This document shows positions 2,216 through 5,263 of a DNA stretch of 64,000 bases, piece after piece; the stretch's first letter is position 1, and each line of letters begins with the position of its first letter. The stretch lies in assembly GCA_963769885.1 (NCBI GenBank), contig CAVYNH010000006.1:128001-192000 (forward strand), written 5' to 3'. The position numbers were made by a program, and so were the translations under genes. The notes beneath the pieces are model-generated. The model searched no databases, was not told where the DNA came from, and worked only from the letters and a program-made list of their open reading frames with translations. The DNA comes from Methanobacteriota archaeon (GTDB taxonomy: Archaea; Thermoplasmatota; E2; DHVEG-1).

Positions 2216-3154
2216 ATGCACATCGGTCCTGTCAACGTTGATCCTCCGTTCGTGCTCGCGCCGCTTTCGGGCGTCAGCGAGACCGCGTTCCGGATGCTGT
2301 GCAAGGAGAACGGCGCCGGGCTCGTCTACATGCAGATGATCGACGCCGCGGTCATTAGCACCAAGACCCATGATGAGGTTGCTGCGTTCCTTAATATTCA
2401 GGAGACAGAGCATCCGATTACGGTGCAGTTAATCGGTGGGGACAAACCCACCTTAGTCAAGGCTGTGCAGGCCGTGGAGGAGTTCGCTGACGTCATTGAT
2501 TTGAATGTCGGTTGCATCGAGGAGGATTATATCGCAAAGTGCACAGGCTCGGCGCTCCTTGACAAACCTGAGTTGTTGAAGACGCTTCTGTCGGCGATGG
2601 TCTCAGCCACGAGCAAGCCGGTGACGGCGAAGATCCGAATCGGCCGGGACCCGCAGCATATCAACGGCGTTGCTGTCGCGCAGCTCGTCGAAGATTGCGG
2701 GGCACAGGCCATCTGCGTCCATGGCCGCACTGCAGATCAGCAGTATGCGGGGAAGGTCAACTGGACCATTATGAGGCAGATTCACGAGAAGCTGTCGATT
2801 CCGGTTATCGCGAACGGGGATATCACGAGCCTGCGGAAAGGCGAGCGGCTGATGAAGGATACGGGCTGTGAGCTGGCGATGATTGGTCGCGAGGCGATGC
2901 ACCGCCCCTGGGTCTTCAACCCCAAGCCCGTCGACATGAGGCAGCAGATTCTGCGGTACATCGACTTGTACGAGAAGTACAGCCTGCGTCGGTCCGCGGT
3001 GGAGTGCGCGGACCATGTGTTCTGGATGCTGCGTGATTATCCGACGACGCAGGAGAAGAAGAACGTGCACCTCATTGGGACGATCCCGCGGCTTAGAAGA
3101 TTCGTGCTCCGGTTAGAGCCGCCAGCATCCCCAGCAGAATCGGCTGGTGGATGA
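2216..3154 (+). CDS. dus: tRNA-dihydrouridine synthase family protein
   Basis: Motifs LAPLSG, IDLNVGC, PVTAKIR, VHGRT, PVIANGDI and MIGR. Confidence 0.85.
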   Translation: MHIGPVNVDPPFVLAPLSGVSETAFRMLCKENGAGLVYMQMIDAAVISTKTHDEVAAFLNIQETEHPITVQLIGGDKPTLVKAVQAVEEFADVIDLNVGCIEEDYIAKCTGSALLDKPELLKTLLSAMVSATSKPVTAKIRIGRDPQHINGVAVAQLVEDCGAQAICVHGRTADQQYAGKVNWTIMRQIHEKLSIPVIANGDITSLRKGERLMKDTGCELAMIGREAMHRPWVFNPKPVDMRQQILRYIDLYEKYSLRRSAVECADHVFWMLRDYPTTQEKKNVHLIGTIPRLRRFVLRLEPPASPAESAGG

Positions 3155-4516: not shown

Positions 4517-4630
4517 TAGCGGGGAATGGATTTGAACCATTGATCTACGGGTTATGGGCCCGTCGGGATTTCCTGACTACCCTACCCTTCTAGGCAGGAC
4601 CAAAGAATCAGTCTCCGAATCCTACTCGCT
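4517..4630 (-). tRNA. initiator tRNA-Met(CAT) with a 39-nt intron at position 4/5 (intron 4588-4626)
   Basis: Spliced sequence AGCG|GGGTAGGGTAGTCAGGAAATCCCGACGGGCCCATAACCCGTAGATCAATGGTTCAAATCCATTCCCCGCTA (75 nt). It has an A1-U72 pair, three G-C pairs closing the anticodon stem and a TTCAAAT T-loop. Confidence 0.9.
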
Positions 4631-4696
4631 ATGGAGGGCAGCCGCGGTGTTCTCCTTTCTGGACCGCTACTGACTCGATGGGGAATATCTTCATCG

Positions 4697-4704
4697 TACT
4701 TAAA
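4697..4704 (-). promoter_or_regulatory. probable TATA box of the tRNA-iMet precursor
   Basis: TTTAAGTA on the minus strand about 70 nt upstream of tRNA position 1, implying a leader of roughly 45 nt. Confidence 0.5.
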
Positions 4705-5053: not shown

Positions 5054-5169
5054 GCAGGGGTACCCGAGCTTGGTCCAAGGGGCAGGGCTTAGGAGCAACC
5101 GCAACACCAACTGTGGGCGAAGAGACCCTGTTGCGTAGGCACTCGAGCGTTCAAATCGCTCCCCCTGCA
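5054..5169 (+). tRNA. tRNA-Leu(TAG) with a canonical 37/38 intron (5094-5124, 31 nt)
   Basis: Acceptor GCAGGGG/CCCCTGC-A, anticodon arm CAGGG-CT-TAG-G|A-CCCTG, long variable arm, TTCAAAT T-loop and BHB bulges GG|A and AG|A. Confidence 0.93.
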
Positions 5170-5263
5170 CTCCAATCCTTTCTTTTCAAGGCGTAAAGAC
5201 CACACAAGAACCTTTAATAAACCATCACTCTCTTTCCTGCTGAAAAAGAGGGACGAAGCAGCC

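What the first reader, a model, noticed from the sequence alone, without database searches (positions are those of the whole stretch)
4517..4643. Initiator tRNA-Met split inside the acceptor stem (intron at 4/5), with a BHB built from the 5' leader
Seen: on the minus strand the tRNA reads AGCG, then 39 extra nt (4626-4588), then GGGTAGGG.... Removing the 39 nt gives a perfect AGCGGGG/CCCCGCT stem, and the junction cannot slide. The precursor folds as a bulge-helix-bulge. Intron helix: GTAGGAT/GTCCTGC. Bulge 1: C3-G4|A. Central helix: (A-2,T-1,A1,G2)/CTAG, 3 pairs plus one A.G. Bulge 2: AA|G5. Outer helix: leader GGCTGCCCTCC pairs over 11 bp with tRNA positions 6-17 (U8 bulged). Established: EndA cuts after the second base of each 3-nt bulge, which here gives exactly the required junctions. 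Non-canonical introns are mainly known from Thermoproteales-type and some DPANN archaea, and acceptor-stem introns are rare. Inference: splicing must precede RNase P cleavage, a 4-nt first exon is carried by the leader, and the leader is under selection. Standard tRNA finders would probably call this essential tRNA truncated or miss it. I do not recall a 4/5 intron in an initiator tRNA or in Thermoplasmatota, but I cannot verify novelty.
Basis: partly seen in the sequence, partly recalled or inferred. Interest (0 to 1): 0.9.

Follow-up and report, generated by a model that had tools for sequence, protein, structure and literature searches.

The report
Leader-dependent acceptor-stem intron in initiator tRNA
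The only initiator tRNA gene of this sediment archaeon (Thermoprofundales/MBG-D) is cut after its fourth base by a 39-nt intron whose splice signal can form only with the transcript's 5' leader; 37 related species share the design, and it is a rare, well-supported variant of ordinary archaeal tRNA splicing.

Summary
Observation confirmed and first reading supported. On the minus strand AGCG (4630-4627), a 39-nt insert (4626-4588) and G5..A73 (4587-4517) together give a perfect initiator tRNA, 74/75 identical to uninterrupted orthologues. It is the only initiator-type tRNA in the 92%-complete genome.

The same architecture occurs in 37 of 108 species genomes of the family. That architecture is: leader strand pairing with tRNA nt 6-17, AUAG/CUAU central helix, bulges CG|A and AA|G, and a variable hairpin. 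Another 47 genomes have an uninterrupted gene and none has both.

Across 37 non-redundant precursors, 92% of proposed pair cells are paired (33-48% when slid), with compensatory changes in 7 pairs. The genome encodes one two-unit (alpha2-type) EndA, RtcB and RNase P RNA.

New here: the leader also carries a conserved spare copy of the 5' acceptor strand (36/37 split vs 1/19 unsplit leaders). It is predicted to hold the 3' acceptor strand until splicing.

Some uninterrupted relatives keep the split-type leader, which suggests precise intron loss.

No RNA reads could be obtained, so splicing itself is inferred. I found no publication for this lineage. Acceptor-stem (3/4) introns are known in Thermoproteales. 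Earlier notes of this scan report the same design on other DNA.

The parts
4697..4704 (-). Archaeal TATA-like box TTTAAGTA; the transcription start is inferred near 4674, giving a ~44-nt leader.
   Evidence: Read directly. The same box, followed by a conserved ...tattcc..aaag element, lies 50-65 nt upstream of A1 in split and unsplit relatives. The start site is inferred from the usual archaeal TATA-to-start spacing, not measured.
4664..4670 (-). Spare ('placeholder') copy of the 5' acceptor strand in the leader. GUAGCGG is complementary to CCGCUAC, i.e. tRNA nt 68-73 plus the first trailer base (4522-4516).
   Evidence: GCGG occurs in 36/37 split leaders against 1/19 unsplit leaders, with 5-7 contiguous pairs to CCCCGCU in all split leaders. 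The MFE of 34-35 of 36 precursors pairs the 3' strand with this box.
4633..4643 (-). Leader strand of the outer BHB helix (GGCUGCCCUCC), which pairs with tRNA nt 6-17.
   Evidence: Pairs l1-l11 are conserved in 37 relatives with C/U and A/G transitions that keep pairing. Pair l10-N16 is A-U in 15, G-C in 13 and G-U in 4.
4629..4632 (-). 5' strand of the 4-bp central BHB helix: leader A-2 and U-1 plus tRNA A1 and G2.
   Evidence: AUAG is invariant in 37/37. It pairs with CUAU in 35 relatives and with CUAG (A.G mismatch) in this genus only.
4627..4630 (-). Exon 1: tRNA nt 1-4 (AGCG). C3 and G4 plus the first intron base form bulge 1, with the cut after G4.
   Evidence: Bulge CGA is invariant in 37/37. 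Register as in PMC4090602.
4588..4626 (-). 39-nt BHB intron between tRNA positions 4 and 5.
   Evidence: Homologous inserts of 29-39 nt sit at the same place in 37 species. Their sequences are largely unalike beyond the bases next to the bulges, but all keep a hairpin.
4619..4625 (-). 5' arm of the intron hairpin (inner helix h').
   Evidence: It pairs with 4594-4600. The first three pairs are paired in 110/111 cells, with G-C/A-U/G-U, C-G/U-A/U-G and A-U/G-C variants.
4594..4600 (-). 3' arm of the intron hairpin.
   Evidence: As above.
4590..4593 (-). 3' strand of the central helix (CUAG). It is followed by bulge 2: A4589 and A4588, then G5 at 4587.
   Evidence: CUAU in 35/37. Bulge 2 is AAG in 35, AUG in 1 and ACG in 1.
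4517..4587 (-). Exon 2: tRNA nt 5-73, comprising the D arm, anticodon arm (CAU at 4556-4554), T arm, 3' acceptor strand CCCCGCU and discriminator A. Nt 6-17 (4586-4575) form the exon strand of the outer helix.
   Evidence: The spliced product differs at one base (A9) from the uninterrupted gene of a family relative, L005.

Best explanation
This is the organism's single, functional initiator tRNA-Met gene, interrupted between nucleotides 4 and 5 by a protein-spliced (bulge-helix-bulge) intron.

The primary transcript probably starts about 44 nt upstream of A1. It folds so that:
(a) leader nt -13..-3 pair with tRNA nt 6-17 (outer helix);
(b) leader A-2 and U-1 plus A1 and G2 pair with the last four intron bases before the 3' bulge (central helix);
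(c) C3-G4|A and A-A|G5 form the two 3-nt bulges;
(d) the intron forms a hairpin (inner helix);
(e) a spare copy of the 5' acceptor strand further up the leader holds the 3' acceptor strand.

The genome's two-unit, alpha2-type EndA cuts after the second base of each bulge. The outer helix keeps the leader-borne 4-nt exon next to exon 2, and RtcB joins them. The now contiguous AGCGGGG displaces the spare strand to form the real acceptor stem. Only then can RNase P remove the leader.

Shown: the anatomy, its conservation and covariation, that this is the sole initiator gene, and that the enzymes are encoded.

Inferred: the cleavage itself, the order of steps and the role of the spare strand.
For: Anatomy at the stated coordinates.

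Sole initiator gene:
- It is the only initiator-like tRNA in a genome with a complete 46-anticodon set.
- Among 108 family genomes, 37 have the split gene, 47 an uninterrupted one and none both.
- A scan of about 185,000 species genomes found the split form only in 35 Thermoplasmatota MAGs. These include the Thermoprofundales MAGs SG8-52-3 and M11B2D (PMC6461988).

Covariation in 37 non-redundant precursors:
- The central helix and both bulges are near-invariant.
- 92% of pair cells are paired, against 33-48% when the partners are slid.
- 7 pairs show double changes, and 0/500 shuffles reach the covariation score.
- RNAalifold independently recovers the outer and inner helices.
- The full BHB costs on average 0.7 kcal/mol over the MFE.

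Product: the spliced sequence is 74/75 identical to uninterrupted orthologues.

Enzymes encoded:
- EndA: one gene of ~343 aa, matching the two-unit models end to end, below their curated cut-offs. Its best solved relatives are the ~305-315-aa chains 1r0v/2gjw.
- RtcB.
- RNase P RNA.

Published support: a homodimeric Thermoplasmata EndA cuts minimal BHBs. All EndA types cut canonical BHBs regardless of the mature domain (PMC8707768).

Spare strand:
- Present in 36/37 split leaders against 1/19 unsplit leaders.
- The predicted real acceptor stem forms in 0/36 precursors, in 18/36 after in-silico splicing and in 36/36 mature sequences.
Against: There is no RNA evidence.

In this genus the central helix has an A.G mismatch (3 bp). 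Its BHB is 2.2 kcal/mol above the MFE, making it weaker than in relatives.

The literature describes alpha2-type EndAs as mostly associated with canonical-position introns (PMC4033280; PMC5829648).

After in-silico splicing, only half of the leader-bearing intermediates are predicted to adopt the real acceptor stem. The strand exchange is therefore not thermodynamically guaranteed.

The genome is 92% complete.
Confidence: 0.87

Rival explanations
1. The tRNA is used unspliced, as ARAGORN and Rfam call it (4591-4517), with a 5' acceptor strand AGAAGGG and two mismatches. On this reading the upstream AGCG and the pairings are coincidental.
For: Both generic finders report this model above threshold (49.2 bits).
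Against: The stem would have A3.G70 and A4.C69 mismatches. In 35 of 37 relatives the same reading gives AUAAGGG, with three mismatches. Split loci score 10-16 bits below uninterrupted orthologues. The upstream AGCG, both bulges and the helices are conserved with covariation, which this reading does not explain.
Confidence: 0.03
2. The real first exon is the upstream leader box ((A/G)GCGG..., here 4668-4664), and a much longer intervening sequence of about 55-77 nt is removed at a 5/6-7/8 junction by some other route.
For: In about six relatives the box reads as a perfect AGCGGGG preceded by a tRNA-like ...UAU flank. A larger excision there would yield the same mature sequence.
Against: In most species the box is imperfect (GGCGGUGG, GGCGGUAA, GGCGGCGG; G rather than A at position 1), whereas the proximal AGCG|GGG junction is perfect in 37/37. 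No BHB can be drawn at the distal junctions. The conserved BHB sits exactly at 4/5.
Confidence: 0.04
3. The locus is a decaying pseudogene or an assembly artefact, and the working initiator tRNA lies in the unassembled 8% of the genome.
For: The genome is 92% complete in 7 contigs.
Against: The same interrupted gene appears in 37 independently assembled species genomes and never together with an uninterrupted copy. Exons are nearly invariant while the insert loops diverge. The promoter is conserved.
Confidence: 0.02

Closest known systems
Non-canonical BHB introns of Thermoproteales tRNAs, including the 'extreme' 3/4 acceptor-stem position (Sugahara et al. 2008, as cited in PMC4090602)
   Same: A protein-spliced BHB intron inside the 5' acceptor strand. 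tRNAscan-SE 2.0 extends candidates by 60 nt for introns near the ends (PMC8450103).
   Different: Position 4/5, not 3/4. Initiator tRNA. A Thermoplasmatota (Thermoprofundales) host with a two-unit alpha2-type EndA rather than the crenarchaeal (alpha-beta)2 enzyme. A strict hBHBh' motif. It is the only non-canonical intron seen in this genome and is conserved over 37 species, with a spare acceptor strand in the leader.
Split tRNA genes of Nanoarchaeum equitans (including tRNA-iMet) and other archaea (PMC4090602, PMC3218864)
   Same: Sequence from outside the mature tRNA (leader or trailer) supplies one strand of the helix that builds the BHB. An essential initiator tRNA depends on EndA.
   Different: Those are two transcripts joined in trans, mostly at 37/38. 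Here a single colinear transcript is spliced in cis at 4/5, and the leader must afterwards be removed by RNase P.
Permuted tRNA-iMet of Thermofilum pendens (PMC3218864)
   Same: A single-copy initiator tRNA whose maturation needs BHB processing. It has an unusually long promoter-to-tRNA distance and a low score from generic finders.
   Different: That gene is circularly permuted at 59/60 and also has a canonical intron. Here the exons are in normal order.
Korarchaeum cryptofilum: in 2014 the only archaeon with an alpha2-type EndA known to carry non-canonical introns (PMC4033280)
   Same: An alpha2-type EndA coexisting with an intron at a non-canonical position.
   Different: The Korarchaeum enzyme was reported to share the crenarchaeal specific loop for relaxed motifs. 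Here the motif is strict, so no broadened specificity is needed. I did not examine loops in this EndA.
Earlier notes of this scan: e1-3819808 (Thermoplasmatota 4/5 initiator intron); e1-5396619 and e1-5396608 (spare acceptor strand in Asgard leaders)
   Same: The same leader-built 4/5 BHB in an initiator tRNA, and the same idea of a leader copy of the 5' acceptor strand.
   Different: Those are unchecked AI notes on other DNA. Here both features were measured independently on this family's sequences.

Membership tests
Archaeal BHB (EndA-spliced) tRNA intron | A 4-bp central helix flanked by two 3-nt bulges on opposite strands (PMC4090602). | tested here: met
   AUAG/CUAU with bulges CGA and AAG in 35/37 relatives. 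In this window there are 3 bp plus an A.G mismatch. The cost of imposing the motif is on average 0.7 kcal/mol, and 2.2 here.
Archaeal BHB (EndA-spliced) tRNA intron | Flanking helices h and h' (the strict hBHBh' form). | tested here: met
   The outer helix is 10-11 bp (leader with tRNA nt 6-17). The inner helix is the intron hairpin. Both are recovered by the MFE and by RNAalifold, with compensatory changes.
Archaeal BHB (EndA-spliced) tRNA intron | Cutting after the second base of each bulge yields a functional mature RNA. | tested here: met
   In silico, the cuts give the AGCGGGG/CCCCGCU stem and a product 74/75 identical to uninterrupted orthologues. The junction is unique.
Archaeal BHB (EndA-spliced) tRNA intron | The splicing enzymes are encoded in the genome. 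| tested here: met
   EndA, RtcB and RNase P RNA for leader removal.
Archaeal BHB (EndA-spliced) tRNA intron | Excision observed in RNA (junction reads, circular or linear intron). | not testable with these tools
Archaeal initiator tRNA-Met | CAU anticodon, A1:U72 pair, and three consecutive G:C pairs at the bottom of the anticodon stem (established knowledge). | tested here: met
   All three are present after removing 4626-4588. The two other CAU tRNAs of the genome have G1:C72 and lack the GGG/CCC stem.
Two-unit homodimeric (alpha2-type) EndA | A polypeptide of about 290-350 aa with two tandem units, of which only the C-terminal one is catalytic. | tested here: met
   The protein is ~343 aa from Met225 of the ORF. 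It has one PF01974 domain and two PF02778 stretches. It matches the 350-aa model NF006795 end to end at 237.8 bits, below that model's curated cut-off of 501. It aligns with the 305-315-aa chains 1r0v/2gjw over residues 65-333. The oligomeric state was not tested.
Split or permuted tRNA gene | Exons on separate transcripts, or in reversed order. | tested here: not met
   The promoter, leader, exon 1, intron and exon 2 are colinear within about 190 nt on one strand.

The most novel reading that the evidence does not exclude
The conserved spare copy of the 5' acceptor strand in the leader is a functional placeholder. It pairs with the 3' acceptor strand while the real 5' strand is tied up in the BHB. 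Once ligation restores AGCGGGG, the real strand displaces it. Acceptor-stem formation, and hence RNase P cleavage and aminoacylation, would then be gated by splicing. This would be a built-in RNA strand-exchange checkpoint for the one tRNA that starts every protein, arising in lineages with acceptor-stem introns.
Probability: 0.45. Interest if true: 0.75.

Novelty: new variant of a known kind. Interest (0 to 1): 0.6.

Why it matters
Four reasons.

1. **Enzyme range.** A strict BHB placed in the acceptor stem can be maintained for a long time in an essential single-copy tRNA by an archaeon with an ordinary two-unit EndA. This extends non-canonical introns beyond the lineages with broad-specificity enzymes.

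2. **Order of maturation.** The design forces an unusual sequence, with splicing before 5'-end processing. It also makes the 5' leader a selected, functional part of the gene.

3. **Experimental system.** The spare acceptor strand and the mixed distribution (split and uninterrupted genes within single genera, some with relic leaders) offer a tractable natural system for studying how tRNA introns are kept and lost.

4. **Annotation.** Generic tRNA finders mis-place the 5' end, so initiator tRNAs of this abundant sediment lineage are likely mis-annotated.

Tried and rejected
- **Single-sequence fold significance.** z = -1.61, not informative on its own.
- **Longest ungapped complementarity** between leader and exon 2 did not separate split from unsplit leaders, because the real helix has a bulge. 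I replaced it with duplex energies.
- **First BHB-constrained fold** did not enforce the pairs. It was redone with enforcement.
- **Mobile-element origin** (lead from scan notes e1-1148477 and e1-3385822). No nuclease or homing-endonuclease gene lies beside this locus.
- **Literature searches** for acceptor-stem introns, or for tRNA introns in Thermoprofundales/MBG-D/Thermoplasmatota, found no description of this intron. The library is partial, and Sugahara 2008 was seen only through citations.
- **Limit of the 185,000-genome scan**. It required this lineage's exon-2 sequence, so it says nothing about 4/5 introns in initiator tRNAs with other D-arm sequences.
- **Not available here:** tRNAscan-SE 2.0 and SPLITS.

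Full report
**What is there.**
On the minus strand the window reads as follows:
- a conserved archaeal TATA-like box (4704-4697);
- a leader;
- AGCG (4630-4627);
- 39 extra nt (4626-4588);
- G5 onward to the discriminator A at 4517.

Deleting the 39 nt gives a 75-nt tRNA with the stem AGCGGGG/CCCCGCU, an A1:U72 pair, anticodon CAU and a GGG/CCC anticodon stem. These are the marks of an archaeal initiator tRNA. The junction is unique, because a shift of one base either way breaks the stem.

ARAGORN and Rfam report instead a tRNA at 4591-4517. Its 5' strand AGAAGGG has two mismatches, and it scores 49.2 bits. Uninterrupted orthologues score 57-59 bits and other split loci 42-43 bits. Generic finders therefore mis-place the 5' end rather than miss the gene.

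**Is it the working gene?**
The host assembly is 2.09 Mb in 7 contigs and 92% complete. It has a full set of 46 anticodons. Of the three CAU tRNAs, the other two have G1:C72 and no GGG/CCC stem. No other initiator-like anticodon arm or AGCGGGG...CCCCGCU pair exists in the genome.

The family holds 108 species genomes:
- 37 carry the split pattern;
- 47 carry an uninterrupted gene;
- none carries both;
- the remaining 24 matched neither exact pattern.

Both states occur within single genera (g18: 9 split, 7 unsplit; also g8, g39 and g49). Relatives from other families of the order and class are uninterrupted.

A pattern scan of about 185,000 species genomes found the split form in 35 records, all Thermoplasmatota MAGs. 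Two of them, SG8-52-3 and M11B2D, are published Thermoprofundales (MBG-D) MAGs. That paper mentions neither tRNA nor introns (PMC6461988).

**The splice signal.**
I dissected 37 non-redundant precursors by anchors. The results were:
- The central helix AUAG/CUAU is invariant, except that this genus has CUAG, giving an A.G mismatch.
- Bulge 1 is CGA in all 37. Bulge 2 is AAG in 35, AUG in 1 and ACG in 1.
- The three intron-hairpin pairs next to the bulge are paired in 110 of 111 cells. They use G-C/A-U/G-U, C-G/U-A/U-G and A-U/G-C, while the rest of the insert (29-39 nt) varies freely.
- Leader nt -3 to -13 pair with tRNA nt 6-17, with one bulged exon base (U8 or a G of 9-12).
- Leader changes are transitions that keep pairing.
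- Pair l10-N16 switches between A-U (15), G-C (13) and G-U (4).

On a MAFFT alignment, the named structure has 92.0% of cells paired, against 33-48% when partners are slid by 1-3 columns. Seven pairs show changes on both sides, and 0 of 500 shuffles reach the observed covariation score. RNAalifold recovers the outer and inner helices on its own.

Enforcing the whole BHB costs 0-0.3 kcal/mol over the MFE in 25 of 36 precursors. The mean is 0.7 and the value here is 2.2.

The register matches the published definition: a 4-bp helix flanked by two 3-nt bulges. In canonical introns the first two anticodon bases end the central helix, so nt 36, 37 and the first intron base form the bulge (PMC4090602).

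**Enzymes.**
The genome has one EndA gene. The 567-aa ORF begins with about 224 aa of low-complexity read-through. The likely product starts at Met225 and is about 343 aa.

- It has one catalytic PF01974 domain and two N-terminal-domain stretches.
- It matches the 350-aa two-unit models end to end, below their curated cut-offs.
- It aligns with the 305-315-aa chains 1r0v/1rlv/2gjw across both units. From memory, these are the dimeric Archaeoglobus fulgidus enzyme.

RtcB and archaeal RNase P RNA are also present.

Published work states that archaeal EndAs recognise the BHB regardless of the mature tRNA domain. It also states that all architectures cut a canonical BHB. A homodimeric enzyme from another member of the Thermoplasmata cuts minimal BHB substrates (PMC8707768). 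A strict BHB at 4/5 is therefore a plausible substrate for this enzyme. This is inferred, not tested.

**A second leader element.**
Eleven to 25 nt upstream of the anti-D strand, 36 of 37 split leaders contain GCGG within a box (A/G)GCGG(G/U)(G). The box is usually preceded by UAU(A). The 37th leader has GUGG, which still pairs. Only 1 of 19 unsplit leaders has GCGG.

The box mimics tRNA nt 1-7 and can form 5-7 contiguous pairs with CCCCGCU. In this window it is GUAGCGG (4670-4664), complementary to nt 68-73 plus the first trailer base.

In MFE folds:
- The 3' strand sits on this box in 34-35 of 36 precursors.
- The real acceptor stem forms in 0 of 36 precursors.
- After in-silico splicing with the leader kept, the real stem forms in 18 of 36, including this window's gene.
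- It forms in 36 of 36 mature sequences.

I read the box as a placeholder for the 3' strand that the ligated 5' strand later displaces. Its conservation is shown; its function is inferred. The spacer between the box and the anti-D strand is not conserved, which argues that the box is under selection and is not a mere relic.

**Order of events (inferred).**
RNase P cannot act first. Cutting at A1 would remove the leader strand of the outer helix and half of the central helix. In addition, the unspliced RNA has no acceptor stem. The order is therefore EndA cleavage, then RtcB ligation, then strand exchange, then RNase P. During ligation the 11-bp outer helix holds the 4-nt exon in place through its leader.

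**Gain and loss.**
All 37 split leaders form a duplex of -11 kcal/mol or stronger with tRNA nt 5-19 (mean -15.7). Among 39 unsplit leaders the mean is -8.2, but ten reach -10 or stronger, against 9.5% of shuffles.

Several of those ten look like split-type leaders joined directly to exon 2. In L086 the leader ends ...GGCTACTCATCAT before AGCGGGG and the upstream box has decayed. L019, L009 and L010 are similar.

This fits precise intron loss at 4/5 in some lineages. In other unsplit genes, such as L004 in the mixed genus g18, the whole leader differs downstream of the shared promoter. That points to replacement of the leader-intron cassette. I did not build a species tree, so the number of gains, losses or transfers is open. 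No nuclease or mobile-element gene flanks this locus.

**What is known, and novelty.**
Non-canonical BHB introns are well described. A 3/4 acceptor-stem position is cited as the extreme case in Thermoproteales (PMC4090602). tRNAscan-SE 2.0 extends candidates by 60 nt to catch introns near the ends (PMC8450103).

Disrupted initiator tRNAs are known: split in N. equitans and permuted in T. pendens (PMC3218864). A 2014 review named K. cryptofilum as the only archaeon with an alpha2-type EndA carrying non-canonical introns (PMC4033280).

I found no paper describing a 4/5 intron in an initiator tRNA, any tRNA intron in Thermoprofundales, or a spare acceptor strand in a leader. The library is incomplete.

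Earlier notes of this scan report the same 4/5 design in another Thermoplasmatota genome, and report 'spare acceptor strands' in Asgard leaders. I had measured both features here before reading those notes, and I count the notes as leads only.

I class the finding as a new variant of a known kind. The splicing chemistry is ordinary. The position, host lineage, obligatory leader participation and placeholder strand are the unusual parts.

**Limits.**
- No reads could be obtained, so excision, the 5' end and the transcription start are all inferred.
- Thermodynamic folds ignore proteins, modifications and tertiary structure.
- The genomes are MAGs.

Noticed in passing
window 5054-5170 (+): tRNA-Leu(UAG) with a 31-nt intron at the canonical 37/38 position. 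It is transcribed divergently, with its 5' end about 420 nt from A1 of the initiator tRNA gene. ARAGORN's default mode and Rfam at the gathering threshold both missed it; ARAGORN in intron mode found it. By eye, its central helix (CUUA/GAAG) also carries an A.G mismatch.
   Followed up: partly
G000:C4:138424-138546 (outside the window): A third CAU tRNA (G1:C72, elongator or Ile2-like) has an ambiguous interruption. ARAGORN models a 29-nt anticodon-loop intron plus an implausibly long variable arm. The alternatives are one intron of about 46 nt or two introns.
   Followed up: no
L086, L019, L009, L010, L084, L085, L024 (uninterrupted genes of family relatives): These uninterrupted genes have leaders that still carry the anti-D strand typical of split genes. 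In L086 the split-type leader abuts AGCGGGG directly and the upstream GCGG box has decayed. They look like precise intron-loss products.
   Followed up: partly
L031:1474-3177 (-) = G000:C7, EndA locus: The longest EndA ORF is 567 aa, but its first ~224 aa are low-complexity P/H/R-rich read-through. The real start is probably Met225, giving ~343 aa.
   Followed up: partly
window 2216-3154 (+): A dihydrouridine synthase (Dus) gene lies about 1.4 kb downstream of the initiator tRNA gene. The leader sequesters the D-arm bases of the precursor. The proximity is probably coincidental.
   Followed up: no
L024, L070, L072, L073, L081, L082 (uninterrupted relatives): Several uninterrupted initiator genes have A5 instead of G5 (AGCGAGG). 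In L024 the 3' strand reads CCTCGCT, a compensated pair. No split gene shows this variant; G5 lies in bulge 2 there.
   Followed up: no
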